42,886 bases of DNA from a virus (Duplodnaviria > Caudoviricetes), in IMG/VR virus record IMGVR_UViG_3300037044_000005, positions 1 to 42,886 of that record; one strand, 5' to 3'. The position numbers were made by a program, and so were the translations under genes. Below are positions 1 through 42,886 of this stretch, one piece after another. Under the pieces are notes generated by a model, which was not told where the DNA came from, did no database searches, and was given only the letters and a program-made list of their open reading frames with translations. The stretch's first letter is position 1. Every line of letters begins with the position of its first letter.

Positions 1-124
1 AACGGCTACATTACCTGCGTGGTGGCGGGAGTAGAACCCGCTTCTGACGCTGATACTTCTGAGGCTGGGAAAATGCCGACCGAAGCCGCAGACTCCACCG
101 CGTCAGGTGCATGTTTTGTTAGGT
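1..124 (-). mobile_element. attC site of cassette L1 (continues across the contig end to 42878-42884)
   Basis: Minus strand reads ACCTAAC (R'', 124-118) AAAAC ATGCACCTGACGCGGTGG ... CCACCACGCAGGTAAT GTAGCC GTTGGGC. The R' box is completed only if the ends are joined through the AACGG overlap. Confidence 0.75.
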
Positions 125-267: not shown

Positions 268-314
268 CCTAACTATGATTTGGAGCAATTATTTGAGTCA
301 AATAATTTGCTAAT
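268..314 (-). repeat. 47-bp cassette-array head site (attI-like or half-attC), copy 1
   Basis: 46/47 identical, in inverted orientation, to 14256-14302; contains the palindrome AATTATTTGA-N-TCAAATAATT and ends in a GTTAGGT core. Confidence 0.85.
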
Positions 315-527
315 TGCTTCCAGTCCATAAAACAACACCATATCACCAAACGCCGATTTTGACATATTACACCTGTTTTGCATTTCAATAAACCTTTGCT
401 CTGCCTGTTTGGTGGTGTATATCATGACGCGGCGATTTCGCTTTAACTCATTGGGCTTCTTGGGAGCGCCTTGTTTGACGGCTCGCCTGTATCTGATGTT
501 TCCGATGGTGTGATAAGTGGATGCCAT
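273..527 (-). CDS. small putative ribbon-helix-helix DNA-binding protein
   Basis: GAPKKPNELKRNRRVMIY followed by two helices (MSKSAF); typical small phage RHH pattern. Confidence 0.5.
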   Translation of the reverse strand: MASTYHTIGNIRYRRAVKQGAPKKPNELKRNRRVMIYTTKQAEQRFIEMQNRCNMSKSAFGDMVLFYGLEAISKLFDSNNCSKS

Positions 528-3847: not shown

Positions 3848-3922
3848 GGACTAGAGCCGAAACTGGAAACGGGTCTGCTCATCGAAAGCAGAAAAAAGAT
3901 AGTTCGAATCTGTCCTAGTCCA
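3848..3922 (+). tRNA. atypical tRNA-like gene, nominal anticodon UCG (Arg)
   Basis: Acceptor GGACTAG/CTAGTCC, anticodon stem CTGCT/AGCAG with loop CATCGAA, T arm GATAG-TTCGAAT-CTGTC; lacks U8 and U33. Confidence 0.55.
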
Positions 3923-3924
3923 CA

Positions 3925-3986
3925 GCCCATGATGTGAGTTCGAGTCTCACCTACGAGTAATAGTAGCTCAATTGGCAGAGCAAGGC
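3925..3986 (+). ncRNA. circularly permuted tRNA-like module 1 (T arm, closed acceptor stub, D arm)
   Basis: GTGAG-TTCGAGT-CTCAC, then CTA-cgagtaa-TAG, then TAGCTC-AATTGGCA-GAGC; closed by GCC/GGC. Confidence 0.6.
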
Positions 3987-3990
3987 AGAC

Positions 3991-4051
3991 CACCAAGATG
4001 AAGGTTCGAGTCCTTCCTGATTTATCAGTAGCTCAAAGGCAGAGCAGTGTG
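3991..4051 (+). ncRNA. circularly permuted tRNA-like module 2
   Basis: GAAGG-TTCGAGT-CCTTC, then CTGA-ttta-TCAG, then TAGCTC-AAAGGCA-GAGC; closed by CAC/GTG. Confidence 0.6.
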
Positions 4052-13708: not shown

Positions 13709-13936
13709 ATGAAAATGAGTTTATCGAATACAAATTCTGGTTCCGGCTGGCAGTGCCCGTCATGTAAAACATGGATTCCCGCTGGTGAGTTTCATGCTTG
13801 CAATGGTTTCATGTCATTTGAAGAATGGTTCGCTGGTTGGTTTGAACGCCACATGAAAGAAGTTGCTGATTTCCACAAGCGCGCCATGTGGGATGCGTGG
13901 CAAGCAAAAGAAGCCACCCGCAAGGAAGGAAAATAG
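13709..13936 (+). CDS. hypothetical protein
   Basis: GWQCPSC motif; AAAGGA RBS. Confidence 0.55.
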   Translation: MKMSLSNTNSGSGWQCPSCKTWIPAGEFHACNGFMSFEEWFAGWFERHMKEVADFHKRAMWDAWQAKEATRKEGK

Positions 13937-14260
13937 ATGAACTGGAAACTCCCCGTCATATTACTTACATTTGCAGTCATGGCGTGTGGGATGCAATTAC
14001 CACTTACTGCTGAAACTGTTACTAAGGCGAATCTTATTAACACCCCGCGCCTGTCAGCCGCTCCCGTCCCTGTAACCCCTGGTACTGCTCTCGTTTGCGG
14101 GTACTGGAACATTCGGGAAAATCCCGACCCCGATTCCGCATCAATCGGGATTGCCCCCGCTACCGTCACCCTGACAGGCAGGACAGCCACCGCGCCCGAT
14201 GGCGGGCAGTGGGTAGAGACTGCGGAAGGGTGGATGAATGAGAAGGGGTTGTGTGATTAG
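13937..14260 (+). CDS. lipoprotein with SH3b-like domain
   Basis: Signal peptide ending VMAC (lipobox-like); WNIRENP...W...GW SH3b pattern. Confidence 0.65.
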   Translation: MNWKLPVILLTFAVMACGMQLPLTAETVTKANLINTPRLSAAPVPVTPGTALVCGYWNIRENPDPDSASIGIAPATVTLTGRTATAPDGGQWVETAEGWMNEKGLCD

Positions 14261-14302
14261 CAAATTATTTGAGTCAAATAATTGCTCCAAATCATAGTTA
14301 GG
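14256..14302 (+). repeat. 47-bp cassette-array head site, copy 2
   Basis: ATTAGCAAATTATTTGAGTCAAATAATTGCTCCAAATCATAGTTAGG; the GTTAGGC core is at 14297-14303. Confidence 0.85.
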
Positions 14303-14335
14303 CAGAACCCATAAAAACGAGTTCCTTTCTAACCC

Positions 14336-14364
14336 TTGACATCGTTACTGTAACGCGGTAAGAT
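14336..14364 (+). promoter_or_regulatory. near-consensus sigma70 promoter with operator palindrome
   Basis: TTGACA-17 bp-TAAGAT; the spacer holds CGTTAC-T-GTAACG. Confidence 0.8.
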
Positions 14365-14386
14365 TAGGTCAATCAAGGAGATTGAC

Positions 14387-14671
14387 ATGACACAGACAAC
14401 CCAAACACGCGACGAGCAATTTTTGAGCCAGTTCCAATTTGGCGCAATCCGCTTCAATGAGTGGAAGCAGAAGTATCAGGTCTGGCTTGAATCCGATGAG
14501 TTTCGCTCTGGCAAGAACCAGAACGCGCCTGAATTTTTGGCGCAGGACGCGTTTGATGTCCTTTGGTTCTCCACTGTTCAGGAAGCCGAAGCGTTCTGCC
14601 AGAAGTTCGGCTTTGAGCCTGTAATGACCAAGACCGTTTACCACGTCAGCGGGAATGTCTTATGGCAGTAG
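14387..14671 (+). CDS. hypothetical protein (cassette R1)
   Basis: AAGGAG RBS directly after the promoter. Confidence 0.75.
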   Translation: MTQTTQTRDEQFLSQFQFGAIRFNEWKQKYQVWLESDEFRSGKNQNAPEFLAQDAFDVLWFSTVQEAEAFCQKFGFEPVMTKTVYHVSGNVLWQ

Positions 14672-14865
14672 TCACGTCCAGCAATCGGATGTTATTTCAG
14701 CAGGCATGGGACTTGTCCGCAGGGACGGTCTCATACCTGATTGATTGCACTAACTACGACATTATTTATACCGTAAAGCGAGAGTTTGCTTTTTGGTGTC
14801 TACGAAATCCAAATTTTGATAATTGGATTCAGGCTTGGAAGGTGTTTAGTGGTCAACAAAGATAA
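14662..14865 (+). CDS. hypothetical protein (cassette R1)
   Basis: Overlapping coupled ORF. Confidence 0.6.
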   Translation: MAVVTSSNRMLFQQAWDLSAGTVSYLIDCTNYDIIYTVKREFAFWCLRNPNFDNWIQAWKVFSGQQR

Positions 14866-15070
14866 AACAGGTAGTGATCGTCAATCCCGTTTACGTGCGT
14901 CTCGCGTCAAGTGGTTGGCTAAGAATGCTTATGGCTTATCAGCAGAAGGTCTTATTGGTGCGCTCATGCGTGGAGAATGTTTTTTATCATGGGCGGGTGT
15001 GCCAAAATCCCGCTTAAATATGATGCATGGCTCAAAGGTGGCGTCTGACAAGAAAGTGACGAGAGCATAA
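14849..15070 (+). CDS. small basic putative DNA-binding protein (cassette R1)
   Basis: GTG start after GGAAGG; TGSDRQSRLR basic helix; hairpin at 15071-15105 follows. Confidence 0.5.
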   Translation: MVNKDKTGSDRQSRLRASRVKWLAKNAYGLSAEGLIGALMRGECFLSWAGVPKSRLNMMHGSKVASDKKVTRA

Positions 15071-15123
15071 AGTGAGCGGCGGTGACCACCTAGTCGCCGT
15101 TCACTAGAATAAGAAAATATCTG

Positions 15124-15381
15124 ATGAATAAAAAAGAATTAAAAAAATTAAAACTCGGCTTGTATAAGTTGTTTTGGAAAAGCGGAGGTTATTCGCTTGC
15201 TTCTGTTGGTCAGGATAAATCTGGTGCGTTGTGGTTTGCGCCGTGTAATTGGGTTAATGTCCCATGTTTCAACTGGCGGAATGTATGGCGCGTTGAAGAA
15301 ATCTGCCTAACACAGCGTGCAGCGGATTTGCCGCCAGTCATGGGCACGGCTGAATATATCGAAGTGGCGGCAAACCGCTAA
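15124..15381 (+). CDS. hypothetical protein (cassette R1), reads through attC
   Basis: Stop TAA lies in the L' box of the attC. Confidence 0.65.
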   Translation: MNKKELKKLKLGLYKLFWKSGGYSLASVGQDKSGALWFAPCNWVNVPCFNWRNVWRVEEICLTQRAADLPPVMGTAEYIEVAANR

Positions 15382-15396
15382 CGCAAACCGTTGGGC
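15305..15396 (+). mobile_element. attC site (92 bp)
   Basis: GCCTAAC-ACAGC-GTGCAGCGGATTTGCCGCCA ... TGGCGGCAAACCGCTAACGC-AAACC-GTTGGGC, with an attC-like bulged fold. Confidence 0.88.
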
Positions 15397-15425
15397 GGCT
15401 CTCGCTCAAAGAAAAGGAATTGCAA

Positions 15426-15644
15426 ATGGAATATATGCCGCAAGTAAAAGTAAGCAAAGAAGATTTCCTAGCGTTGAGTGATCTAGCTGGTGAAATGTCA
15501 ATCATGGATTACATGAGCAAGGTTATTCATGAGCATGTCGCCGCCCAACAAAGCGTGTACTCTGACGCGGCTACCGTGTCGAATTGCAAACATAATTTTG
15601 GTGATGGTTTATATTGTATCCATTGCGGTGAAGTCTTATTTTAG
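15426..15644 (+). CDS. cassette R2 protein (RHH-like N-terminus, Cys/His C-terminus)
   Basis: AAAGGA RBS after the core site; the C-terminus is encoded inside the attC. Confidence 0.6.
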   Translation: MEYMPQVKVSKEDFLALSDLAGEMSIMDYMSKVIHEHVAAQQSVYSDAATVSNCKHNFGDGLYCIHCGEVLF

Positions 15645-15670
15645 CCGCGCAGGTAACGCAACCGTTCGGC
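15543..15670 (+). mobile_element. attC site (128 bp)
   Basis: GCCCAAC-AAAGC-GTGTACTCTGACGCGGCTA ... TAGCCGCGCAGGTAACGC-AACC-GTTCGGC. Confidence 0.8.
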
Positions 15671-15693
15671 GACTGAAAAGAAAGGATTATGTA

Positions 15694-15861
15694 ATGGATA
15701 AAGGGATACCAGATGAAAAAAAGAAAAACGACGAGGCTGCATTGTTCTTGTGTAATTGTCGTGATTGTTCTTCACACATCGAACTATCTTGGCACGAAAA
15801 CTTTTGTGAATATAAAAAATGGTGGTTTGATGAAAGGGTAAGAGGATTATGCAATGGATAA
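15694..15861 (+). CDS. small Cys-rich hypothetical protein
   Basis: ATG at 15694 after AAAGGA. Confidence 0.5.
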   Translation: MDKGIPDEKKKNDEAALFLCNCRDCSSHIELSWHENFCEYKKWWFDERVRGLCNG

Positions 15862-16078
15862 TTTGACTGTCTGCACAAAATGCCGAATCCATCATTACGA
15901 TAATTGCCCGCGCTGTTTAGGATTTGGACTGAGAACCAATACCATCGAGGATGTGCCAATTACAGCGCAACAGGCGCACGGCATAGGAAATCCAGGTGAC
16001 GAACCGCTTCCAGAGTGGAAGCCTTGTCCTGTTTGTGGCTCTACTCCGCAAGGGATACCAGATGAAAGGAAAAAATGA
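15854..16078 (+). CDS. small Zn-finger protein
   Basis: Three CxxC motifs. Confidence 0.6.
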   Translation: MDNLTVCTKCRIHHYDNCPRCLGFGLRTNTIEDVPITAQQAHGIGNPGDEPLPEWKPCPVCGSTPQGIPDERKK

Positions 16079-16608: not shown

Positions 16609-16643
16609 TTGGCAAACTTGAAAATATACGTATAATATCAAGT
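16609..16643 (+). promoter_or_regulatory. sigma70 promoter overlapped by an inverted repeat
   Basis: TTGGCA-16 bp-TATAAT; ACTTGA...TCAAGT brackets the -10 box. Confidence 0.6.
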
Positions 16644-29914: not shown

Positions 29915-30763
29915 ATGGAAAAAGAATACAAAGGCTCTGTTTATATCGGCGTAGTCGGTAATGAGTTGGAAAACGGGCAGTGTCGTGACAGTATAGAAAA
30001 CATCACGCGCCGCAAGACAGACAGCCCGCCGATTTATGTAAGAGCTACGAAGGGCTACGAAGCCCGACAAATGCACCTTAACAACTGGTACGACAACACA
30101 AAGCACGCTTTTATTTTGCTTCTTGACCATGACATGATTTTTCAGCCTGATACGCTGGAGAGACTACGCAAGCATAAAAAGCCGTTCGTCTCTGGCTTTT
30201 ACATGCGCCGCACGTTTAATCCAGTAGCTCCCGTATGGTTTGAGCAAGGCGAAGCAGGAAAGATGCCGATGAAGCCGTTTACTTTCGTCCCTGAAAAGGA
30301 CAGGCTGTATCCCATTGGCGCGAGTGGCTGGGGTTGTATTCTCCTTCACCGTGATGTTGTTACAGAAACTCGCAAGCTATTGAAAGGCGAGCCTGACATT
30401 ATCGAAGATGACATGGACATTGCGCCCTATGACTTGCAAAAGATACTCAAGGCAATTGACAACCTTGCAGGCGATAAACCTAACCTAAAAGAATCGGTCA
30501 AGGTCTTACAGGAAGAAATCATCCCATTGCGGGGTGTAAAAGACCCAGTCGGCTCAGACATCCGCTTTCCTTTCTACGCTCGGCTGGCTGGCTTTCCTCT
30601 TTTGGGAGATAGCGGAGTGAATTGCGGGCATATCGTCAATTACCCGATAAAGATGGACGACTATATCAACCAGTCCGCCGCCACTGTTAGAAGTTTATCG
30701 GTAGCGATGCACGAAAGCCATACGCGAGAGATCGAGCGGCTGGAGAAAGCGAAAGCGCAATGA
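29915..30763 (+). CDS. GT-A fold (GT2-like) glycosyltransferase
   Basis: LLLDHD DxD motif, GWGCILL, GSDIRF and CGH. Confidence 0.8.
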   Translation: MEKEYKGSVYIGVVGNELENGQCRDSIENITRRKTDSPPIYVRATKGYEARQMHLNNWYDNTKHAFILLLDHDMIFQPDTLERLRKHKKPFVSGFYMRRTFNPVAPVWFEQGEAGKMPMKPFTFVPEKDRLYPIGASGWGCILLHRDVVTETRKLLKGEPDIIEDDMDIAPYDLQKILKAIDNLAGDKPNLKESVKVLQEEIIPLRGVKDPVGSDIRFPFYARLAGFPLLGDSGVNCGHIVNYPIKMDDYINQSAATVRSLSVAMHESHTREIERLEKAKAQ

Positions 30764-32334
30764 GATTGCACATTATCGAGCCGTATCACTCCGCTGCCAT
30801 GCGTCGAATGTCAGAGCCGCTTATCAAGGAACTGGAAAAGCTGTACGAAGTGACAACAGGCGAAGCGCCAGATGATGCCGCAGGCCTGAATTATCACATC
30901 CCCTGGCATTCGCTGGTTGGATATGAAAAGAAAGGCAAGCACGCGATTTCATACACTCACTGCAATGTCGGCAATGAAGCCGCATTGATGGACGCTTGCG
31001 AACGCGCCGACCTTATCACCTGCATGACCTTTCGCGGACGGGATGAACTTATTGAACTTGGTGTAGACCCGTCAAAGTTATGGGTTATCTACTCCGCCGC
31101 AGATCAATACTTTTTCAGAAAGCGCGTTATTGGGATTGTGGGTTATCCACAACCAAACGGACGCAAACGCGAGAGCCTTATTTTAGATTTGGCTTGGAGT
31201 TACGACCTGACGCCCTATCAGTTTTTATTTATCGGTGCAGGGTGGGACGATATGGTGACGCAGTTGCAGGGGCTTGGAGTTTCAGCCGCTACTTATCACG
31301 CCGAGACAGATGAGCTACTGCGGAATATGTATCACAAGATGGATTTACTTTTGGTAACAGGTTACCGCGAAGGCGGGCCATTACCGCTGATTGAGGCAAT
31401 GGCTTCAGGCTGTGACGTACTCTCGCCCCGCTTTGGATATGCCGCCGATTTATTGGAAGAAAGCCAACTCTATGACGACATGGCCGACTTAGCTGAGAAG
31501 TTAGACGCCTTAACCGCGCCATACATCCGCAACCATAAACTCGCCCGTGCCTGTACATGGATGGATTATTGTGCCGAACATGCTTTTATTTTCGGGCGGC
31601 TGATGGGTGAATCAGTAGACCTATATCCAGAGCGCGGAATGAGCCGATACGCTCAAGTGATGGATGTCATAGACCAGATGAAACCCTTTGGCATTGTCGA
31701 GGTCGGCACTTGGAGCGGCGCACGCGCAATCCAGATGATACAAACCGCCGCCAAACATAGACCAGCAGGTGAAATCGAGTATCAGGGATTTGACCTTTTC
31801 GAGCAGCAGACCGCCGAACAATTCAGGCGCGAGTTATCGAAAATCGGCTGGGATGAAGACATTGTTAGCAAGCGTATCAACGCCACTGGCGCAAATGTTG
31901 AACTTATCACGGGCGACACCAAAGAAACTCTTGGCAAAAACATAAACGACTTTGAAAGCATTGTTTATTTTGTAGATGGCGGGCATTCAGAAGAGACAAT
32001 TAGAAGCGATGGTGAAAACGTTTTAGAGGTTATGCAAAATAATTCTGTGGCCGTATTCGATGATTACTACCATGAAGGAAAGCCCGAAGGCATGGGGTGT
32101 AATGATTTTATCGACAACCTAGACCTTGATACTTTTGAAGTAGTCCATTTGCCCGCCCGCACCATTACGGCTGACGGGCGCAACATCGGAATGGTGAAAG
32201 TGAGACGAAATGCCAACATATATTTACAGCGACGGGAAGCACTCGCAGGAAGTAACACATTCCATGACAGAGAATCCGCCGATTGTCTGTCAAGTGTGCG
32301 GATTGAAAATGCACCGACGCCCGCAAATATTTAG
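30760..32334 (+). CDS. GT-B (GT4-like) glycosyltransferase fused to a class I SAM methyltransferase
   Basis: EGGPLPLIEAMASG; VEVGTWSG, FVDGGHS and VFDDY. Confidence 0.85.
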   Translation: MRLHIIEPYHSAAMRRMSEPLIKELEKLYEVTTGEAPDDAAGLNYHIPWHSLVGYEKKGKHAISYTHCNVGNEAALMDACERADLITCMTFRGRDELIELGVDPSKLWVIYSAADQYFFRKRVIGIVGYPQPNGRKRESLILDLAWSYDLTPYQFLFIGAGWDDMVTQLQGLGVSAATYHAETDELLRNMYHKMDLLLVTGYREGGPLPLIEAMASGCDVLSPRFGYAADLLEESQLYDDMADLAEKLDALTAPYIRNHKLARACTWMDYCAEHAFIFGRLMGESVDLYPERGMSRYAQVMDVIDQMKPFGIVEVGTWSGARAIQMIQTAAKHRPAGEIEYQGFDLFEQQTAEQFRRELSKIGWDEDIVSKRINATGANVELITGDTKETLGKNINDFESIVYFVDGGHSEETIRSDGENVLEVMQNNSVAVFDDYYHEGKPEGMGCNDFIDNLDLDTFEVVHLPARTITADGRNIGMVKVRRNANIYLQRREALAGSNTFHDRESADCLSSVRIENAPTPANI

Positions 32335-34034: not shown

Positions 34035-34215
34035 AGAACAACAAATTGAAAAACTGAAGAAACAGGTTAAGCGTTTTGAAGACAAGGGCTATTTAGACAC
34101 CGCCGCTCATCAAATGCTTGCAAATCTGCTGAAAGATTCCGATGAGGGCGTATCCCCCCGAAGCACCGAACAGGTGAAACAGGAGAACAAGAAAAATGGC
34201 AAACAAAATTTATAA
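34024..34215 (+). CDS. hypothetical protein
   Basis: GAGG RBS; overlaps both neighbours. Confidence 0.5.
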   Translation: MQSKEQQIEKLKKQVKRFEDKGYLDTAAHQMLANLLKDSDEGVSPRSTEQVKQENKKNGKQNL

Positions 34216-34630
34216 AGACATGCGAATCAAGATAGATAATGCCTCCGCTTCACTGACGGACATTACCTCTTATCTGTCTAGTGCTTCGCTCCGCGCCGTA
34301 CAAGACACGATTGAAGACACAAGCCTCGCAGATGGAAATCGCTCCTACCTGTTCGGTTTGGCAGGCGCTTCCATCCCATTATCAGGCATGGTCAACACAA
34401 CAACTGATGCCATCTTTGGGCCGCTGGTTGGCAATCGCACCACAGTGACGAAGACCATCGAATACCGCGCTTATCCGACCAACTCCACTGGCAGCGTAGG
34501 CCGTTTTTACAACGGCGAAGTTCTGATTACCTCGGTGGAATATTCGGGGAGCGTCAACAGCTTGGAAACGTTTAGCTGTGAAGCCGTTTTTGACGGCGCG
34601 GTGAATCGTACCTCAACGCAATTGGCATAG
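34196..34630 (+). CDS. tail tube protein, paralog 1
   Basis: IEDTSLAD..RSYLFGL pattern; upstream of chaperone and tape measure genes. Confidence 0.75.
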   Translation: MANKIYKDMRIKIDNASASLTDITSYLSSASLRAVQDTIEDTSLADGNRSYLFGLAGASIPLSGMVNTTTDAIFGPLVGNRTTVTKTIEYRAYPTNSTGSVGRFYNGEVLITSVEYSGSVNSLETFSCEAVFDGAVNRTSTQLA

Positions 34631-34637
34631 GTGAGAC

Positions 34638-35060
34638 ATGGCAAACAAAATTTATAAAGATATTACCGTGAAGGTAGACGCTCCGAATAGTACGGGGACG
34701 CTTGCGCTGGTAGACATCACTTCATATTTATCGAGCGCATCATTACGCTCGGTACAAGACACGATTGAAGACACAAGCCTCGCAGATGAAGAACGCTCTT
34801 ATTTGTTTGGACTAGCGGGCGCTTCCATTCCGCTGGCTGGAATGGTGAACACCACGACTGACAACGCCTTTGGTCCGTTGATCGGCAATCGCACCACCGC
34901 CACAAGAACAATTCAATACACCGCATACAGCGGGCGCGTGTATCGCGGCGAGGCTCTGATTACCTCGGTTGAATATTCGGGGAGTGTCAACTCTCTGCAA
35001 ACATTTAGCTCCGAGGCCGTTTTTGATGGAGCAATAACCCGCACTAGCGTTGCACTTTAG
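34638..35060 (+). CDS. tail tube protein, paralog 2
   Basis: Closely similar to the preceding ORF along its whole length. Confidence 0.75.
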   Translation: MANKIYKDITVKVDAPNSTGTLALVDITSYLSSASLRSVQDTIEDTSLADEERSYLFGLAGASIPLAGMVNTTTDNAFGPLIGNRTTATRTIQYTAYSGRVYRGEALITSVEYSGSVNSLQTFSSEAVFDGAITRTSVAL

Positions 35061-35078
35061 CAACAGAAAGTAGTACCT

Positions 35079-35372
35079 GTGGAATTTACAAAAGAAAATC
35101 CAAGCTGTATTTTCACCGTCCCTGACCGCCCTACCGTCCGTCAACAGATGGAATATTTCTCAGCAACAGCGGGCGCGGCTGGCTCACAGATTCTCACCCG
35201 TTACTGGCTCGGCGCAAAGGTGCTGATTCAGGATTGGAAGTGTGATGAATTACCGAAATTCGATGTTGACATAAACAGCATTGATAACCCATCTCAAACC
35301 GAGATAATGATTTGGGCGGCGATGCAGGTAAAAGCGCACATGGACGGGCTGGAAAACATCCCAAAAAACTAA
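35079..35372 (+). CDS. tail assembly chaperone (lambda G-like)
   Basis: Ends ATC CCA AAA AAC TAA, a slippery run at 35360-35369. Confidence 0.75.
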   Translation: MEFTKENPSCIFTVPDRPTVRQQMEYFSATAGAAGSQILTRYWLGAKVLIQDWKCDELPKFDVDINSIDNPSQTEIMIWAAMQVKAHMDGLENIPKN

Positions 35373-35644
35373 TTCAGGCGGTGGTGGATTATGCCTATGG
35401 GGAAGGCAACCCGCCGCCCGAATTGAAACTTTCCTGGCAGTGTGAAAGATACCACTGCCTTCCAGATGCAGGCGCGTACCTTGACCAGGATTATTGCCTG
35501 ATGGTTCGCATGACCGCATTCTCCAACATAAGCAGCGTTATCAACAAATGGAAGAACGTCAAGGGTAAGGACATTCATACGTTGACCGACTCAGACCGCC
35601 GCGTACTACGGGCACTTAAAGACATGGGAGTTATGTTTCTCTAA
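35363..35644 (+). CDS. tail assembly chaperone -1 frameshift extension (lambda T-like)
   Basis: -1 frame is open from the slippery site to the tape measure start. Confidence 0.7.
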   Translation, partial: KKLIQAVVDYAYGEGNPPPELKLSWQCERYHCLPDAGAYLDQDYCLMVRMTAFSNISSVINKWKNVKGKDIHTLTDSDRRVLRALKDMGVMFL

Positions 35645-37365
35645 TGGCAACCGTCGACATCATCATAAGAATGATAGACCAGACAGGGGGAGTGTCTAAT
35701 AAAACCGTTGCCAATCTAAAAGGCATGGCGACTACGCTTGCCACTGTCACGGCGGCGGCGGCAGCGGTGGGTATTGCCATAAAAAAAGCATTTGACCTCG
35801 GCAAAGAGGGGGCGATGCTTGAGTTTACGGCAACTAAGTTTGACCGCCTTTCCGAATCCATTGGCACTACTTCCGAAGCGTTGATGAAGGATTTGAAACA
35901 AGCGACAGGCGGGATTTATTCAGACATGGAATTAATGGCAAGCACAACCGACCTCGTCGGCTTGGGGCTTGCAAAGACGCACGATGAAGCGGTTCGGCTT
36001 GCGAAGGTTTCTGGCGGGCTGAATATGAACATGAATCAGTTGGTGCTTACCCTTACCAACATGACCACGATGCGCTTTGATGCTCTCGGCGTTTCCACTG
36101 ATGGTTTCAAAGAAAAAATAGCCGCGTTAGAAAAGCAGGGATATTCCACAAACGACGCATTCAAAGAGGCGTTTTTACAGCAAGCCGAAATGCAATTAGA
36201 AAAGGTGGGAAACGCCGCAGATACATCGGCGGGCGCTTTCATGCGTCTCGAAGCTCATATTAAAAATGTCGGGGATGAATCAAAGCGCAGTTTTTCTGCC
36301 GCGATGGCTCCTGCTATTGATAACTATATGGATCAGGTGGACAAGGCCAGCAAGCGCACCGAAGTCCTGTCTAAAGTAACAAACCTGACAAGCGAACAAA
36401 TCCGCCGCGCCTCCATGAGTAGCGCCGATTTTGCTCAAAACCTTGACAACTTAGTTAATGAATATATCCGCGCTGAAAACTACGGGCTGGCATGGGAAAA
36501 GGCGCTAGGGTTGACGAATCAGACAATAACGGAAGCCGCCGTAAATGTCGAAGCCTTATCAAAGGCAAACGAACAGCAATTAGATACCGCCATTCGACTC
36601 ACTGAGATGAACAGCGATTATGCCAAGTCCCAGCAGGATATTAAGGACGAAGTTGCTGAATTGATGGTTGAAAAAAGCAAGTTGTACGAGTGGGAAGTAG
36701 ACGACATCGAAACCATAAAAGGAAAAATCGACGAGCTTGACGCTGAATATAGCGAGAATGCCGAGAAACATAAAAAGCGGACGGATGCAATCCTGCTTGA
36801 TATGACGCTTGAAAAAATCGCCATGCTTGACGGCGTTGCTGGATTCAATGCAGCGGAAATGGAAAAGGCACTGGCGGTAGCGCAGACAATGGGTGCGGTG
36901 GAAGAAGCAGCGCTACGCGAGACACTAGCATTTGATGCGGTATCAACGGCGGTTGCGAATGGCACTGTAAAAATTCAGGACATGCAGCGCATTATCGAAT
37001 ACATGACGCAAAACGAGTGGACGGTGGAAGTAGCTGTACGGGTAAACGAGTTGGATCAGCTTCATGCGGCGCTTACTACTCAACAATCGAATGTATTCAA
37101 CGATTACGGCACGAGCGGAGATAGAAATCAGCACGCGGCGGGTGGGACTTTTCAGATTCCTATGTCCTATGGAAACGAAGGCTTCATGATGGGCGGCGGG
37201 GATTCTGCAAGCGGCGGGGAGCAATTGAAAATCATCCCGCGAGGTAGAGGTAATTCAGAAGAAAGAATGATTGCCCTGCTCGAACAGATTGCAAGCAAGC
37301 CGACCATTACCGCATACGCATTATCGCAGGCAGTGCGTGACGCGATTACAAGGGTGAGTAAATGA
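35644..37365 (+). CDS. tape measure protein
   Basis: 573 aa, Ala-rich and helical; follows the chaperones. Confidence 0.85.
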   Translation: MATVDIIIRMIDQTGGVSNKTVANLKGMATTLATVTAAAAAVGIAIKKAFDLGKEGAMLEFTATKFDRLSESIGTTSEALMKDLKQATGGIYSDMELMASTTDLVGLGLAKTHDEAVRLAKVSGGLNMNMNQLVLTLTNMTTMRFDALGVSTDGFKEKIAALEKQGYSTNDAFKEAFLQQAEMQLEKVGNAADTSAGAFMRLEAHIKNVGDESKRSFSAAMAPAIDNYMDQVDKASKRTEVLSKVTNLTSEQIRRASMSSADFAQNLDNLVNEYIRAENYGLAWEKALGLTNQTITEAAVNVEALSKANEQQLDTAIRLTEMNSDYAKSQQDIKDEVAELMVEKSKLYEWEVDDIETIKGKIDELDAEYSENAEKHKKRTDAILLDMTLEKIAMLDGVAGFNAAEMEKALAVAQTMGAVEEAALRETLAFDAVSTAVANGTVKIQDMQRIIEYMTQNEWTVEVAVRVNELDQLHAALTTQQSNVFNDYGTSGDRNQHAAGGTFQIPMSYGNEGFMMGGGDSASGGEQLKIIPRGRGNSEERMIALLEQIASKPTITAYALSQAVRDAITRVSK

Positions 37366-40247
37366 CAACCATTTTAATGGACATTTTTATCTATGTAGAC
37401 GGCGGCTGGACAAGCGTCTTAGCCGATACCCTTTCCGCAAGCGAGGCGTCTGCTGATTGGGGCATGGCTTCAAACAGGCCAGATGACAGAGTAGCAAAAA
37501 CAGGGACGCTTTCTTTCAGCCTGAAAAATCACACAGGCAAATACCTACCAGGCGGAGCGAGTGTCATCTCTGCGGATTGGGACAAAGGCACGAAAGTAAA
37601 AGTAGTATTCACCTTCAACGGGGAAAGTTGGGTACGCTTTTACGGCGTAGTGAATAAGCTGGACATCCTCAAGACGCCTAGCAATTCCGTTGTAAAAGTG
37701 TCGTGTGTGGACTGGCTGGACTACGCCGCAAAATATCCGCTGAGCAATCCCGCGATCCAGTTAGATAAAAGTATGGATGAAGTGATAACCACCGTCTTGG
37801 ACGCGATGCCAATTCCCCCACTGGCGCGGGATATTTCCACTGGCGTGAATGTGTTCCCTACCGTCTTTAACGATGCGTCTATGTTCACTTTGGGATTGTC
37901 TGAATTTTCAAAGATGGCAATTTCAGAGATGGGATACATATACGTCAAAAAAGATAAAACGTATGGCGAAACAATACGGGCAGAATCGGCGGCGTCCAGA
38001 GTTTTATCAACGCCTAGAAAACAAGTTGCCATATCGCAAGACCCAGGCTTTTTACTTCAAGAGAATGGCGATTTTCTTTTACAAGAGAACGGGGATAAAT
38101 TATTACTTGGTGGATACACCTTCGAGGACGTTGTTGTAAATAATAGCATGGAAGACATCGGCGTGGATTATGGCGAGAACCTGATAAACCGCCTAACCTT
38201 GACCGTCAACCCAACAAGAATCGACACAGTAGACACACAGCTTTATAGCATTGATTCACCCATCTACTTTGAGCCGTCGGCGGTGAAACAATTCAACGTA
38301 CAGTTTACAGAGCCGAACAGCAAACGACTTGTCGCAGCTTTACCGCCAGAGGACTCTTATCCTACCGCGCTATTGCATTTTGACGAAGCGGGAACAACTG
38401 GATTAATCTCGGACGATAGCGGGCGGGTGTGGTCAGACTTCGGCGTTGATCTGGTTTCCAATATCAAGTATCTAGGGTCACGAGCCGCATATTTTGACGG
38501 TAGTAATGCTTACGTCTATGCCCCCAGCGCGGACATATTCGAGTTTGGCAGTGATAACTTCACGGTGGAATGGTGGGAGTATCGCTTAGATGCGACGTCA
38601 GGTTATGCCACAATCCGCAGGAGCGACAGCGCAGGGTTCATCCCCTGGAAGTTTGGAGAGTCGGACGGTACAAACTCAAAGATTTACATCACGTCTAACG
38701 GCGCATCATGGGACATTGCCAACGGTAGGACGTTCGGAGCGATTGCAACACAGACATGGACACACTATTCAATCTGCCGAGTAGGAAATACTTTCTACGC
38801 CCGAAAGAACGGATTACTCACAGACACTTGGACTTCATCGGCAACGATTCTAGCTAGTACAGCCAGTTTGTATATCGGCGGCACCAGCACATGTATCAAC
38901 GCCATTATTGATGAGGTGCGGATTACCAAAGGCTTGGGGCGCTACGCCACGACATTCACCCCGCAGACAGAGCCTTACAGCCTGTCAGGTCTTATCTATT
39001 CCGCTTGGACAAATCGCGGCGGGGATGGCACGGAACTAACAGCGGATTTTGACATCACAGTTTCATACGGTGCGGCTGGCGCCACCCTGAACGTGACCAA
39101 CTCAGGCACGGTTGGCGGATGGCTCAATAATCTAAAGATATTCGGGAAGGTGGTAGAGAACACCAGTCCTATTTCAGACGTACAGGAAGACGCCGCCTCT
39201 ATTGCAAGATACAGCCACCATGAGTTGATTATCAATCAGGTGTACCAACAGGATTTCACGACAGGACGCGAGGAAGGCGCAAAGATTCTAGGGGAGAACA
39301 AGACGCCGCTTATCCGTGTAAATAATGTCACGATGAACGCGAATAAAAGCGAGGCACATACTCGCTACTTCCTAGAGACGGACGTGGGTGATGTGGTGAA
39401 AATCGTGGAGCCGACCACAGAAACCAATGCGGATTATTTCATTCAGGGTATGAACTGGAAGGCGTCGGCTGGAAATAACGGCGTGATTGTGGATTTTGGA
39501 TGGACGGTGAAGAAATTCCGCGAGGCTCTTTCCGCGCTGGCGATTCAGTTTGCAGACCTTACCACGAACGACAACTATCTAAACTTCGGGTATCAGGCGG
39601 CGGTATCTGCGGACAATGTGCCTTATCGGATTTGGTCGTACTGGTTCAAGTCCGCTCTATCCAGACAGGATGCCAGTCACATTACTACAAAAAGCGCCGC
39701 CGATGGGTCTGCTACTGGCAGGGGCTATACAATTTATACAGGTGCTACTGGGAGACTTTCTATTAATGCGAAATACGGAAATGTGATGAAGCAATGGAGA
39801 GCAGATAGCGCCATACCGAACGTTAACGACACATGGCATCACGTATTTATCGCCCATGATACCCGTTCCTCTGGCACGCCGATTATGTATGTCAACGGTT
39901 CTGCTGTAACGCCTTCTTTGATTTCCTCCACCACAACAGACAATGAGACTGAGGTGGGTACTGAGTTGAAAATCGGATACGGGGCACAAGACACCAGCAT
40001 GAAAGACATCCGCATTTACAACGGCGACCAGGTTGCCGACCCCGCAGCATTGGCGGTGGCTCTGTACGCTGAGACTCCATACGGGGATGCGAATACACGC
40101 GGCTTGTTATTCCGCACGTTCTACGCGCCAACAAACGAACTGGCAGATTACGAAGGCGATTACTTGACCGAAGACCAAAAGGTTTTTGATGACATCGGCT
40201 TTGCGGCGGGCACGCCAATAGATGACCCGCTCGGTGAAGCATTATAA
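37362..40247 (+). CDS. large tail tip/baseplate protein with LamG-like lectin domains
   Basis: LLHFD...FDG...FTVEWW...WTHYSI...IDEVRIT, and a second WHHVFI domain. Confidence 0.75.
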   Translation: MTTILMDIFIYVDGGWTSVLADTLSASEASADWGMASNRPDDRVAKTGTLSFSLKNHTGKYLPGGASVISADWDKGTKVKVVFTFNGESWVRFYGVVNKLDILKTPSNSVVKVSCVDWLDYAAKYPLSNPAIQLDKSMDEVITTVLDAMPIPPLARDISTGVNVFPTVFNDASMFTLGLSEFSKMAISEMGYIYVKKDKTYGETIRAESAASRVLSTPRKQVAISQDPGFLLQENGDFLLQENGDKLLLGGYTFEDVVVNNSMEDIGVDYGENLINRLTLTVNPTRIDTVDTQLYSIDSPIYFEPSAVKQFNVQFTEPNSKRLVAALPPEDSYPTALLHFDEAGTTGLISDDSGRVWSDFGVDLVSNIKYLGSRAAYFDGSNAYVYAPSADIFEFGSDNFTVEWWEYRLDATSGYATIRRSDSAGFIPWKFGESDGTNSKIYITSNGASWDIANGRTFGAIATQTWTHYSICRVGNTFYARKNGLLTDTWTSSATILASTASLYIGGTSTCINAIIDEVRITKGLGRYATTFTPQTEPYSLSGLIYSAWTNRGGDGTELTADFDITVSYGAAGATLNVTNSGTVGGWLNNLKIFGKVVENTSPISDVQEDAASIARYSHHELIINQVYQQDFTTGREEGAKILGENKTPLIRVNNVTMNANKSEAHTRYFLETDVGDVVKIVEPTTETNADYFIQGMNWKASAGNNGVIVDFGWTVKKFREALSALAIQFADLTTNDNYLNFGYQAAVSADNVPYRIWSYWFKSALSRQDASHITTKSAADGSATGRGYTIYTGATGRLSINAKYGNVMKQWRADSAIPNVNDTWHHVFIAHDTRSSGTPIMYVNGSAVTPSLISSTTTDNETEVGTELKIGYGAQDTSMKDIRIYNGDQVADPAALAVALYAETPYGDANTRGLLFRTFYAPTNELADYEGDYLTEDQKVFDDIGFAAGTPIDDPLGEAL

Positions 40248-40259
40248 GGAGATTTAGAA

Positions 40260-41024
40260 ATGGCTGATTCTGATATTAGTGGATTAACTGCAAACACTAC
40301 CCCCGCAGTGGGTGATTTACTGGCAATCGTTGACGACCCCGCAGGTTCAGCGGTAACTCAAAAAATTACCGCGTCCGATTTCCTGAAGGTTGTAAACGGA
40401 CTGACAGAGGATACAAGCCCCGATAACGCGGCGGATTTTCTTCTGTCCTACGATACAAGCGCAAGCGCGGCAAAGAAAGTCAAGCCTGAAAACATTGTAG
40501 TTAGTGGCGGCGGAAAAGGACGCGGGGAAATCCTGTCTTCGTCTGTGCCTTTGACGTTGGGCGCCCCGATTGGATTCATTGACAGCGGCTCATCCCCCGT
40601 TGATTCATTCCCCTACTTTGAGTTTGGGGATTCCGCGCTGGCGTATGTAGATTTTTATTGCCGATTGATGAATTATCAGGGCGGCGGGTTGACTGTTGAC
40701 TTTAACCTCTTGAGGACAACGGCGGCGGCGGCGGCTGGTTATTATTTTCAGGCTGCAATCCGCAGAATCGCTAATGCGTCGGATGATATTACCGCCTCAC
40801 ATACCTACGATTACAACAGTGTGACCGTCAACGTACCTGCTGGTCCGCCTGCGGCTGGTATTCCGATGGAAGGGACTATCACTTTCACAGACGGCGCGGA
40901 CATGGACAGCCTCGCGGATAATGAAATGTTCGTTTTACGTTTCAGACGCGACCCGACTCACGCAAACGATAACGCGGGTGATGCGGCGCGGGTGCTGGCT
41001 ACGATCACCATTCGGGAGACGTAA
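40260..41024 (+). CDS. tail fibre/receptor-binding-associated protein
   Basis: MADSDISGL..TP..GD...TQKIT N-terminal repeat; AAGGAG RBS. Confidence 0.6.
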   Translation: MADSDISGLTANTTPAVGDLLAIVDDPAGSAVTQKITASDFLKVVNGLTEDTSPDNAADFLLSYDTSASAAKKVKPENIVVSGGGKGRGEILSSSVPLTLGAPIGFIDSGSSPVDSFPYFEFGDSALAYVDFYCRLMNYQGGGLTVDFNLLRTTAAAAAGYYFQAAIRRIANASDDITASHTYDYNSVTVNVPAGPPAAGIPMEGTITFTDGADMDSLADNEMFVLRFRRDPTHANDNAGDAARVLATITIRET

Positions 41025-41026
41025 TC

Positions 41027-41701
41027 ATGGCTAGAGTATTTAACGGGTCAAGTCAGTATCTTTCTGCTTCATCGACTTTGCTTTCCAATGAGCCGATTGA
41101 TGTTGTTATGTTTGCAAACTCAGACACAACTACTGCGGCGCAGGTTGCCTTTTGTTTGGGGAACAATGGCGCAAGTGGTATGTACTCCATTTCATTTGAG
41201 GGTACTACGGGGGGCGACCCAATAAGAGGGCTGAAACAAAGTGACGCAGGCGCTAACGGTTTTGCAGATACTGCGTCCTATTCAGCCGCGACATGGTACG
41301 CAGTTTCCATGTCTTTAATATCTGATACGTCAAGAGCGATTTTTCTGAACGGAACAAAAACGGCGAATACAACCAACACCGCCGACCCCTCGCCCGACTT
41401 TATAACTATCGGGGCGTTACGGCGCTCATCTGTTGCCGCTTATTTTGATGGAAGTATATCTGAAACGTATATGCTTGATGTCAATATGTCAGACGCACAG
41501 CACGCTCTGGCTGGAAAAGGTATCTCCCCCTTCTGGCTTGTGCCTGGTAAGAACGTGCGGGCTTGGTATCCATTGCAGGGGCATAATAACAACAGGGTCA
41601 GGAACGGTTATCCTGACCTGTCTGCTACGGGAAGTCCTACTAATGGCACGCATCCTGCGCGGGTGATGCGTCCGAGGATAAATGGAGTTATGGCGGTGTA
41701 G
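41027..41701 (+). CDS. LamG/concanavalin-like tail protein
   Basis: FNGSSQYL...TWYAV...IGA...FDGSISE. Confidence 0.7.
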   Translation: MARVFNGSSQYLSASSTLLSNEPIDVVMFANSDTTTAAQVAFCLGNNGASGMYSISFEGTTGGDPIRGLKQSDAGANGFADTASYSAATWYAVSMSLISDTSRAIFLNGTKTANTTNTADPSPDFITIGALRRSSVAAYFDGSISETYMLDVNMSDAQHALAGKGISPFWLVPGKNVRAWYPLQGHNNNRVRNGYPDLSATGSPTNGTHPARVMRPRINGVMAV

Positions 41702-41885
41702 CGGCTTGTACGAGCGTCCGCCCAACGGTTTGCGTTAGGCGGCATTGACGTTTGCCAAAATATTTATAATGGCATTTAGGACACATGTAAATTTTTTTAT
41801 CTCCGCCAGATGCTAACTTTACATTGACGAGAATCGTATTTTCACTTTCGCAAGGGATGCCTCCCCAATACATTTCACATTTCAC
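41688..41885 (-). CDS. cassette L5 small Cys-rich protein
   Basis: GTG start after GAGG; CPKC motif. Confidence 0.55.
   Translation of the reverse strand: MKCEMYWGGIPCESENTILVNVKLASGGDKKIYMCPKCHYKYFGKRQCRLTQTVGRTLVQAATPP
41720..41740 (-). mobile_element. collapsed 21-bp attC remnant
   Basis: Minus strand reads GCCTAAC-GCAAACC-GTTGGGC. Confidence 0.7.
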
Positions 41886-41915
41886 TTTGCCTCACTTTCT
41901 CGTTGAGCGAGAGCC

Positions 41916-42033
41916 GCCCAATGGTTTGCTTTACCTGCCTGCGGCGGTCACAGCCAAGTAAACCGAGCCAACATATAAAGCGAATAAAATTACCGCCTGC
42001 CCAAAGCAGGTCAGGTGCAAGCGTGTGTTAGGT
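41916..42033 (-). mobile_element. attC site (118 bp; R' is ATTGGGC)
   Basis: ACCTAAC-ACACGC-TTGCACCTGACCTGC ... GCAGGCAGGTAAAGC-AAACC-ATTGGGC. Confidence 0.8.
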
Positions 42034-42161
42034 GGCGTCACATCTTCCAAAGTACCACCGAACATATCACGATAATCTTTCGCCGTTTGCTCATCCATTG
42101 GGACTGACTTCGCCCCATCTGGATAAATGACACGAAACTTTTTATATCTAGCAAAGAACAT
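41931..42161 (-). CDS. cassette L4 protein
   Basis: GGAGG RBS; the hydrophobic C-terminus is encoded inside the attC. Confidence 0.65.
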   Translation of the reverse strand: MFFARYKKFRVIYPDGAKSVPMDEQTAKDYRDMFGGTLEDVTPPNTRLHLTCFGQAVILFALYVGSVYLAVTAAGR

Positions 42162-42176
42162 AAATACCTCCGAGCC

Positions 42177-42268
42177 ACCTAACGGTTGGCGTTAGCGGTT
42201 GGCGGGTTGCGCCAGACTCGCTAATTTTTCGGACGAGTCCAGCCAATCCGCTGCACGCTTTGTTAGAC
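42177..42268 (-). mobile_element. attC site (92 bp)
   Basis: GTCTAAC-AAAGC-GTGCAGCGGATTGGC ... GCCAACCGCTAACGC-CAACC-GTTAGGT. Confidence 0.88.
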
Positions 42269-42272
42269 CCCG

Positions 42273-42596
42273 TTACCGACTTACAGATACTTCGGCGTCG
42301 GGATTTTCTTCGCAAGAGGCAAGATACTCTTGCACAAAAGATACAAGACCTTCGTAAGTTCCCCATCCATTTTCAGGATTGAATTTCTTGAAACGCTCAG
42401 GGTCGCTTTTGAGAAGTTCGAGACCAGCACGCAACGGCTCAATGAGTTGTTCGGCTTTGGTAATTTCAATTTCATCGGGTCGCCAAAGGTGCTTATAGAT
42501 ACCCGCCTCATCAGCCATTTTATTGAGGTTATGGGTGATATTTGCGCTATGTACCGTAGTGGGGCGAACAGCACGGAGATAAACATCGAGTGACAT
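42273..42596 (-). CDS. cassette L3 phage-type hypothetical protein
   Basis: AAAGGA RBS; NITHNL...NPENGWGTY motif; stops 5 nt before R''. Confidence 0.8.
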   Translation of the reverse strand: MSLDVYLRAVRPTTVHSANITHNLNKMADEAGIYKHLWRPDEIEITKAEQLIEPLRAGLELLKSDPERFKKFNPENGWGTYEGLVSFVQEYLASCEENPDAEVSVSR

Positions 42597-42629
42597 ATTT
42601 TTCCTTTCACACTGCCAAGCAAGGCAGGG

Positions 42630-42751
42630 GTCTAACGGTTATGCTTTACCTGCGCGCTTTGCGCTACGCTTTTCGATACGCCACGCACGTTTACGATAAG
42701 GCTTCTTTCTTGGCGCGGGCTTCAAAGCGTCAGGTGCAAGCTGGGTTGGGC
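42630..42751 (-). mobile_element. attC site (122 bp)
   Basis: GCCCAAC-CCAGC-TTGCACCTGACGC ... GCGCAGGTAAAGC-ATAACC-GTTAGAC. Confidence 0.82.
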
Positions 42752-42854
42752 GGCTGAGAAATTCAATGCCAGCCATGCAGATTTCTTGGTGATGCTCATG
42801 GCAGTAATGGAAACACGTGCGCTCTTTGCCACAATCTTTTTTTTCACACTTCAT
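42639..42854 (-). CDS. cassette L2 small Cys/His-rich protein
   Basis: AAGGAG RBS after the core site; the basic tail is encoded inside the attC. Confidence 0.65.
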   Translation of the reverse strand: MKCEKKDCGKERTCFHYCHEHHQEICMAGIEFLSRPTQLAPDALKPAPRKKPYRKRAWRIEKRSAKRAGKA

Positions 42855-42886
42855 AATTTCTCCTTGTTGAGCAGTCCGCCCAACGG

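What the first reader, a model, noticed from the sequence alone, without database searches (positions are those of the whole stretch)
14297..15670. Second, oppositely oriented cassette array in the early region
Seen: two further attC sites (15305-15396 and 15543-15670) with the same L boxes. The cassette starts GTTAGGCAGA and GTTGGGCGGC exactly complement their own R'' regions, TCTGCCTAAC and GCCGCCCAAC. The leader TTGGGCGGCTCTCGCTCAA is shared with cassette L5 in the other array. Inference: two independent capture loci, one in each divergent early transcript, draw on a common cassette pool.
Basis: partly seen in the sequence, partly recalled or inferred. Interest (0 to 1): 0.88.

Follow-up and report, generated by a model that had tools for sequence, protein, structure and literature searches.

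The report
Phage with two gene-cassette docking sites
An integrase-free groundwater bacteriophage carries two oppositely oriented rows of integron gene cassettes that begin at near-identical 47-base sites, and because one row exists with and without an extra 273 bases at the predicted cut point, the phage likely borrows its bacterial host's enzyme to swap accessory genes.

Summary
Confirmed. 15305-15396 and 15543-15670 are integron attC sites, and both cassette starts complement their R'' 10/10. The genome closes to a circle, is a tailed phage, likely of Anaerolineae, and encodes no integrase.

- Both arrays begin at the same 47-bp site (46/47 identical), an attI-like dock, so the loci share one origin.
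- The other array exists with and without 273 bp at the attC crossover (about 45% long form, two runs).
- The first cassette is a fused four-gene unit with its own promoter-like site.

This array itself was invariant in those runs, and its dock only weakly matches host attI.

Among 38 fetched phage records, three more have two separately headed arrays, and unrelated phages share near-identical cassettes. Seven of 49 records searched encode IntI, each pointing the same way as its array.

Phage CALINs are published (Qi 2023). This scan noted others before on other DNA, including a two-array phage with reversed genes; here gene polarity is canonical. No cassette gene is shared between the two arrays. 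Verdict: new variant of a known kind.

The parts
14256..14302 (+). Head of the early (E) array: attI-like docking site; palindrome 14263-14283, then GCTCCAAA-TCATA-G|TT with predicted crossover 14297/14298
   Evidence: 46/47 identical to 268-314; homologs in L076 and L124 keep the register and are followed by different cassettes; host-attI matrix ranks it 3rd-4th of 612 GTTR sites but at only 1.5-2.2 bits
14297..15389 (+). Cassette E1, 1093 bp, four ORFs, likely a fusion of two cassettes
   Evidence: start complements own R'' 10/10; a run-X3 contig matches 14297-14421 with 3 differences and has 23 unlike bases before 14297
14336..14364 (+). Sigma70-type promoter-like site inside E1 (TTGACA-17-TAAGAT)
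   Evidence: 10 of 12; 86% identical stretch in a cassette of L264; function untested
14387..14671 (+). E1 ORF1, 94 aa, unknown function
   Evidence: 11 homologs of 71-98% identity, longest contigs 0.6-4.1 kb; no Pfam, PHROG, PADLOC or NCBIfam family; Atlas best 0.83, uninformative
14662..14865 (+). E1 ORF2, 67 aa, unknown function
   Evidence: no family
14849..15070 (+). E1 ORF3, about 73 aa (GTG start inferred by homology), unknown function
   Evidence: 62% over 52 aa to a cassette ORF of L264 that ends in an intact attC
14997..15104 (+). Decayed internal attC (R''-like remnant plus variable terminal region; L'/R' arm lost)
   Evidence: 15037-15104 aligns to the interior of an intact attC of G002 (83% over 64 nt); position matches the attC of the L264 cassette; no attC-type hairpin
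15124..15381 (+). E1 ORF4, 85 aa, runs into attC E1
   Evidence: phrog_17978 (unknown function), E 1.3e-6; run-X3 contig 15157-15321 with 9 differences
15305..15396 (+). attC E1
15390..15663 (+). Cassette E2, 274 bp: leader 15391-15409 shared with the last cassette of the other array; 72-aa ORF 15426-15644 runs into the attC
15543..15670 (+). attC E2
15664..15690 (+). Cassette-type start (GTTCGGCGAC plus purine-rich leader) with no attC found downstream: likely a fixed, decayed distal cassette
   Evidence: GTTCGGCGGC is the commonest start among 134 phage cassette starts (12); no further arm hit at 8 bits or more
268..314 (-). Head of the other (L) array, copy of the same attI-like site; crossover G at 273
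273..527 (-). Predicted ribbon-helix-helix (CopG-like) gene whose last codons are the L head
   Evidence: Atlas feature scores 0.94-0.95 to CopG/RHH clusters, a lead only; 43-45% identical ORFs overlap the same site in L076 and L124
1..124 (-). attC of the first L cassette; the contig ends at its G|TT crossover, where two alleles (+0 and +273 bp) branch
42630..42751 (-). attC Lb
42177..42268 (-). attC Lc
41916..42033 (-). attC Ld (R' reads ATT, not GTT)
41720..41740 (-). Shortened attC Le (R'' joined to the right arm; 21 nt)
   Evidence: right-arm hit only

Best explanation
This is the second of two integron cassette arrays in a circular, integrase-free tailed phage, and both arrays begin at copies of one 47-bp site that likely works as the docking site (attI) for an integron integrase supplied in trans, probably by an Anaerolineae host. 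Shown: the attC sites, the duplicated head, the lack of any integrase, and a 273-bp presence/absence difference at an attC crossover of the other array. Inferred: during infection, host IntI (or that of a co-resident phage) would join the folded bottom strand of a circular cassette's attC to the head at G|TT, and would excise cassettes between attC sites. Newest cassettes would sit next to the head and be expressed by read-through from the early operons; E1 carries its own promoter-like site. The early-region head was likely copied from the ancestral head at the 3' end of the small RHH-like gene, giving the phage a second capture locus. Distal cassettes decay and become fixed genes.
For: Sites real and beyond chance. 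Genome closes: contigs 1-34327, 34305-34781, 34752-34788 and 34759-42886 at even depth, ends bridged by a 55-nt record (30+30-5) and a 328-nt record, depths 57/51 in X1 and 78/59 in X2. The two paths share only CCGTT, which holds the crossover. No integrase: 76 ORFs against PHROGs and Pfam; TIGR02249 0 candidates in G000. Host type: the E1 right arm hits 119 stretches in GTDB genomes, 85 of the 116 loci titled Chloroflexota (hand count); IntI over cut-off in 65 of 121 genomes of one such family. Heads next to host intI end in (C/T)GYMTAAWCAHTA|GTT-like words, as do many phage heads. The window's head ranks 3rd-4th of 612 GTTR sites on those matrices. L076 and L124 keep this head before different cassettes. 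Capsid relative G002 (79%) has different cassettes at the same position, between replication genes and exonuclease/endolysin. Unrelated phages share cassettes: G002-G036 801 nt at 91% and G001-G021 501 nt at 84%, each the only match of 100 nt or more. Phage attC sites recombine with IntI1 in Qi 2023 (PMC9892861).
Against: The E array is invariant in X1 and X2, which may be the source samples and are contigs that drop rare variants. The head scores only 1.5-2.2 bits against host attI (leave-one-out host values 1.5-14.8 for intI-adjacent heads), far below many phage heads (7-18 bits). Its long form was not found in GTDB genomes, in IMG/VR or above control in 401 genomes of the host order (6 hits against 7). 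The 273 inserted bases could not be read, so that they form a cassette is inferred from the boundaries. E cassettes were not found in 401 genomes of the host class, and ORF1 had no viral relative. No close relative with an empty E locus was found. The host is inferred from attC type only.
Confidence: 0.66

Rival explanations
1. The early array is a frozen relic. It was built by IntI in the past but its head no longer docks cassettes, and only the other array still changes.
For: Unbroken in X1 and X2; only two cassettes; E1 holds a decayed internal attC; low attI score.
Against: The head is 46/47 identical to that of the polymorphic array, with the one change at the palindrome's centre. Both attC sites keep 10/10 start complementarity and fold. 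A near-identical E1 5' end follows different sequence in X3 (one low-depth contig, 23 nt).
Confidence: 0.17
2. The 47-bp element is mainly an operator (palindrome) for the RHH-like protein, and cassettes entered at a chance GTT beside it, as at the secondary (attG) sites described for IntI, then stacked at attC sites.
For: The palindrome is strong (z -3.5) and lies at the end of a predicted RHH gene. IntI1 inserts at sites with only a GWT consensus (bioRxiv 10.1101/2022.09.11.507474, passages). A lone cassette with a non-attI head lies between terminase and portal in G001.
Against: The same GTT is the array start in four of four copies. The 5-nt spacer TCATA equals that of heads L238 and L343. 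Several host heads also have inverted repeats ending at the L box (L200, L216, L237). The palindrome occurs nowhere else in the genome within 5 mismatches, including at no promoter.
Confidence: 0.11
3. The arrays were picked up as blocks from host integrons or other phages by homologous or illegitimate recombination, and IntI never acts on the phage.
For: Qi 2023 describe captured integron segments in temperate phages. The phage has other short repeats at gene borders (15685-15718 repeated at 15846 and 16051).
Against: The polymorphic junction has 5 nt of shared sequence centred on the crossover. Shared cassettes of unrelated phages begin and end at G|TT with different neighbours. Phage cassettes are smaller than those on host contigs (median 383 against 804 bp; 197 and 179 units).
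Confidence: 0.06

Closest known systems
CALINs in bacteriophage genomes (Qi, Rajabal, Ghaly, Tetu, Gillings 2023, PMC9892861)
   Same: Clusters of two or more attC sites without intI in phages; canonical gene orientation as in TJE1 and PH101; DNA methyltransferase cargo (here in relatives: cassettes of 10 phage records hit the window's N6/N4 methylase).
   Different: That survey found 17 CALINs, 3 complete integrons and 1 In0 in 10,705 genomes, and in the parts read it names no attI for the virulent-phage CALINs and shows no variation within a population. Here there are two arrays with a duplicated head, a polymorphism at a crossover, and dozens of records of one attC type.
Shewanella prophage M16-3 (in Qi 2023): complete integron plus CALIN, each starting at a Shewanella-type attI
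   Same: Two arrays in one phage genome, each with its own copy of attI.
   Different: M16-3 is an inactive prophage that carries the host's intI (95% to S. oneidensis). This phage has no integrase of any kind, is abundant and circular in its samples, and its heads lie inside early gene runs.
CALIN / sedentary chromosomal integrons of bacteria (Cury et al. 2016, PMC4889954), here of Anaerolineae
   Same: attC anatomy, cassette polarity, attI-like L box-5 nt-GTT head; Cury et al. suggest that CALIN cassettes can be mobilised by an integrase elsewhere.
   Different: Phage-borne, with smaller cassettes. In the nine phage records with an IntI-like gene it points the same way as the array, whereas host L200 and L214 have the usual divergent intI.
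Secondary-site (attG) insertion, SALINs (bioRxiv 10.1101/2022.09.11.507474)
   Same: Cassettes placed away from an intI gene by IntI acting in trans.
   Different: attG needs only GWT, whereas here a conserved 47-bp head recurs in four places before different cassettes.

Membership tests
attC site | R'' (RYYYAAC) and R' (GTTRRRY) core boxes, R'' complementary to the cassette's own start | tested here: met
   10/10 for E1 and E2; E2's downstream R' is GTTCGGC, keeping only GTT
attC site | L''/L' arms with extrahelical bases on the R''-L'' arm of the folded bottom strand | tested here: met
   unpaired bases lie on the L'' side; arm HMMs from other contigs match
attC site | Recombined by IntI with bottom-strand preference | not testable with these tools
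   needs an assay; indirect support from the crossover polymorphism of a sister site
CALIN (Cury 2016) | At least two attC sites in a cluster | tested here: met
   two in E, five in L
CALIN (Cury 2016) | No intI nearby | tested here: met
   none in the closed genome
Complete integron | intI gene adjacent to the array | tested here: not met
   TIGR02249: 0 candidates in G000
Complete integron | attI site at the array head | tested here: inconclusive
   position, duplication and homologs fit; score against host attI low though ranked 3rd-4th of 612
Complete integron | Pc promoter driving the array | tested here: inconclusive
   no sigma70-like site on the + strand between 13500 and the E head; one inside E1; no RNA run
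Canonical cassette polarity | Genes on the strand that reads R'' to R' | tested here: met
   162 forward, 8 reverse, 27 unclear of 197 phage units; 4 forward, 1 unclear of the window's 5 scored

The most novel reading that the evidence does not exclude
Phages of Chloroflexota have domesticated integrons as their own accessory-gene exchange network. They keep one or more docking sites inside early operons, run on host IntI or on phage-borne IntI lineages co-oriented with the array, and trade small cassettes (often methyltransferases) between unrelated backbones. This phage has duplicated its dock and is caught mid-shuffle in nature.
Probability: 0.42. Interest if true: 0.86.

Novelty: new variant of a known kind. 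Interest (0 to 1): 0.72.

Why it matters
Published phage attC clusters could be stray pieces of host integrons. A duplicated docking site, a cassette-sized in/out difference at the crossover within one natural population, and cassettes shared by unrelated phages argue that phages use the system. That would give phage mosaicism a site-specific mechanism, make integrons two-sided in phage-host conflict, and offer short, testable attI/attC/IntI sets from an uncultured lineage common in groundwater, sediments and sludge.

Tried and rejected
Searches for the head site:
- Exact head in IMG/VR: 0. A shorter pattern gave 8 hits, none extending the match.
- Degenerate head in GTDB: 0. In 401 genomes of the host order: 6 hits against 7 controls, none with attC arms.
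- Metagenome scan covered 48 of 64 parts; 2 of 122 listed stretches were true homologs (L076, L124). L086 was rejected as chance.

Searches for relatives and cargo:
- Relatives of the RHH-like gene, ORF1 and the gene before the E head in IMG/VR: none. Protein search of the RHH-like gene returned only itself.
- E cassettes in 5 and in 401 host-class genomes: only attC-sized hits.
- 16 further capsid relatives, mostly fragments (14 at 53% completeness or less, two at 84-85%): 0 of 16 hold the right-arm pattern. G005 (51% capsid, 43 kb) has no paired attC. Arrays are therefore not shown for the whole lineage.
- PADLOC on 12 array and flanking ORFs: nothing below E 0.05.

Records and analyses set aside:
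- G018 (same site read on both strands), G006 and G001 (second head not found) were dropped from the two-headed count.
- Three fetched records gave no paired attC (G005, G025, G039).
- My first regex finder was faulty and was replaced.
- The IntI tree puts phage IntIs outside the starred host clades, but the phage/host split is weak (67/66), hosts were the best-scoring hits of one family, and four other phage recombinases were in the set; no origin is claimed.
- Run X3 holds only 0.05 of the words and is used for single pieces, not for habitat.
- The idea that the head travelled as part of a cassette (attI-type cassettes exist, PMC12901181, passages) could not be tested.

Full report
1. The observation. 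E1 (15305-15396) and E2 (15543-15670) each have R'', L'', L' and R' boxes. Their bottom strands fold into one hairpin with the unpaired bases on the R''-L'' arm (z -2.6 and -1.8; E1's top strand folds equally well, so folding alone does not show strand preference). HMMs of the two arms, trained on 120 sites from other contigs, find both sites as arm pairs (49 and 26 bits) and none in 20 shuffled windows. Both cassette starts complement their own R'' 10/10, and the 19-nt leader is identical in E2 and in the last cassette of the other array. The L boxes fall in two subtypes rather than one.

2. The genome. The window is an IMG/VR virus record classed as linear with terminase, portal, capsid, tail, helicase, primase, endolysin and methylase genes. 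None of 76 ORFs scanned is an integrase, and the integron-integrase model finds no candidate. Logan contigs of two groundwater runs, either of which may be the source, tile it at even depth and bridge its ends, so the genome is closed and the lack of integrase is real. The record opens inside the other array (L, minus strand, 273 to 1 and 42886 to 41720).

3. (a) Both arrays start at the same 47-bp site, 14256-14302 (+) and 268-314 (-), 46/47 identical: a palindrome, then GCTCCAAA, a 5-nt spacer and G|TT. In L it forms the last codons of a predicted RHH/CopG-like gene (a lead). Two metagenome contigs carry a homologous gene ending in the same site, each followed by a different cassette whose R'' complements its start. 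The E copy has no such gene before it, so it is likely the derived one. (b) The window's ends are joined by two records, of 55 nt (30+30-5, direct) and 328 nt (273 more), at depths 57 and 51 in X1 and 78 and 59 in X2. The paths part right after, and meet right before, the 5 bases CCGTT that hold the attC crossover. That is what gain or loss of one cassette gives, and it leaves too little homology for ordinary recombination. The inserted letters were not shown, so this is an inference from boundaries and size (other units are 196-453 bp). (c) E1 is 1093 bp with four ORFs, a promoter-like site and a decayed internal attC. Its promoter and ORF3 have homologs in an intact cassette of L264. It is likely a fusion.

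4. Is the E array active? Not shown. It lies unbroken in one 34,327-nt contig in both runs. Indirect signs: a contig in run X3 matches E1 from exactly 14297 with unlike sequence before it (23 nt, depth 4), and capsid relative G002 has an array of other cassettes at the same place, between replication genes and exonuclease/endolysin. No close relative with an empty locus was found.

5. Host and integrase source. The E1 right arm hits 119 stretches in GTDB genomes; 85 of the 116 loci are titled Chloroflexota, mostly Anaerolineae (my count). IntI passes the cut-off in 65 of 121 genomes of one such family. Array heads next to host intI end in a word like CCGYATAAWCAHTA|GTT. Matrices from 20 host heads and from 10 intI-adjacent heads rank the window's head 3rd-4th of 612 GTTR sites, but at 2.2 and 1.5 bits, the low end of host values. 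Its long form was not found in hosts. It is therefore attI-like by position and conservation more than by sequence.

6. Generality. Two exact arm patterns hit 32 and 54 stretches in IMG/VR. I searched 49 non-window records, chosen as the larger ones (48 from those hits plus G002), for IntI: 7 pass the cut-off (two carry the same protein) and 2 more, G001 and G021, fall just or well below it. All nine point the same way as their array, unlike host L200 and L214. G012, G013, G016, G040 and G046 have terminase and portal or capsid genes. Of 38 records fetched whole or nearly whole, 35 have paired attC arms, and three without IntI have two arrays with separate heads: G019 and G022 on opposite strands, G036 on one strand. 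G019 has clear head genes; for G022 and G036 none was recognised among the ORFs tested. For G019 and G036 the paired heads share 13 and 16 of 47 positions; G022's second head was found by eye. Many phage heads match host attI well (7-18 bits). Unrelated backbones share single cassettes: G002-G036 (801 nt, 91%) and G001-G021 (501 nt, 84%), with boundaries at G|TT and different neighbours; G019 shares 690 nt at 94% with L199, a 2.3-kb contig of an Anaerolineales bin. Methyltransferase cassettes occur in 10 phage records. These records were selected for having attC arms, so the counts are not frequencies among phages. Of the capsid relatives, the two closest long records have arrays, while G005 and 16 others, mostly fragments, show none.

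7. Two capture loci is supported; 'independent' is not, since the heads are copies. A common pool is shown among relatives but not between these two arrays: no gene is shared, and the leader also heads 1 of 134 other phage starts and 1 of 256 host starts. Gene orientation fits one array per early operon; transcription was not tested.

8. Mechanism. Shown: sites, duplicated head, no integrase, crossover polymorphism in L, cassette sharing among relatives. From established integron biology (Cury 2016, passages; Qi 2023): attC x attI inserts, attC x attC excises, and the bottom strand is preferred. Inferred: host IntI acts in trans on the phage DNA, the head is the dock, expression is by early read-through, and distal units decay (Ld's R' reads ATT, Le is shortened, a cassette-type start follows E2 with no attC). 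Cargo function is unknown here.

9. What is known. Qi et al. 2023 (PMC9892861; I read parts 1-4 of 7: abstract, methods, results, discussion; supplements not seen and may list relevant CALINs) report phage CALINs, show IntI1 activity on five of six phage attC sites, and describe a cryptic prophage with two attI-headed arrays. Eight literature searches listed no other study of phage arrays, of Chloroflexota phage integrons or of within-population cassette variation in a phage; subscription journals are largely missing from that library. From the attG preprint and PMC12901181 I saw passages only. Earlier notes of this scan describe other phage arrays, mostly with reversed genes, one with two arrays, and a duplicated attI without integrase in an Anaerolineae chromosome. 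I tested polarity here and it is canonical (162 forward, 8 reverse, 27 unclear of 197).

10. Verdict. A real second array; by definition a CALIN, not a complete integron; likely working as an integron in trans. New variant of a known kind, interest 0.72.

Noticed in passing
window 1-5 / 42882-42886: The record is classed linear and 53% complete but is a closed circle of 42,881 or 43,154 bp; the assembly broke at the cassette polymorphism. Several other array-bearing contigs also end at an attC (L291, L293, L297, L309), which may mark the same kind of variation.
   Followed up: partly
G001 895-1875, G012, G013, G016, G020, G021, G040, G046, G051: Tailed-phage records with their own IntI-like gene, always co-oriented with the array; G013/G040/G046/G051 form a supported clade (99/98). 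In G001 the gene starts right after an attC crossover.
   Followed up: partly
G001 31018-30936: A lone cassette with a non-attI head lies between terminase and portal, possibly a secondary-site insertion.
   Followed up: no
window 13709-13936 and G019 30780-30875: A gene outside the arrays here has a homolog (66% over 32 aa) inside a cassette of G019; the window's two methylases also have cassette-borne homologs, hinting at traffic between backbone and cassettes.
   Followed up: partly
window 3848-4047: Two tRNA-like Rfam hits over gathering score (43 and 36 bits) and weak Y-RNA-like hits between the divergent early operons; ARAGORN calls none.
   Followed up: no
window 34196-35060: Two tandem major tail genes about 74% identical, also tandem in G001 and G002.
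   Followed up: no
window 15685-15718, 15846-15862, 16051-16068, 13358/13700: Short exact repeats at gene borders outside the arrays; a run-X3 contig skips 16652-16952, about the ORF behind the promoter-like site at 16609-16636.
   Followed up: no
window 29915-32334: Two glycosyltransferase-like genes (one fused to a methyltransferase) inside the structural module, conserved in G001, G002 and G005.
   Followed up: no
host loci L179, L187, L188, L192, L202, L203, L211, L215, L216, L237: Many Anaerolineae arrays have a clear attI-like head with no intI-motif ORF beside it, so orphan docks also seem common in the hosts.
   Followed up: no
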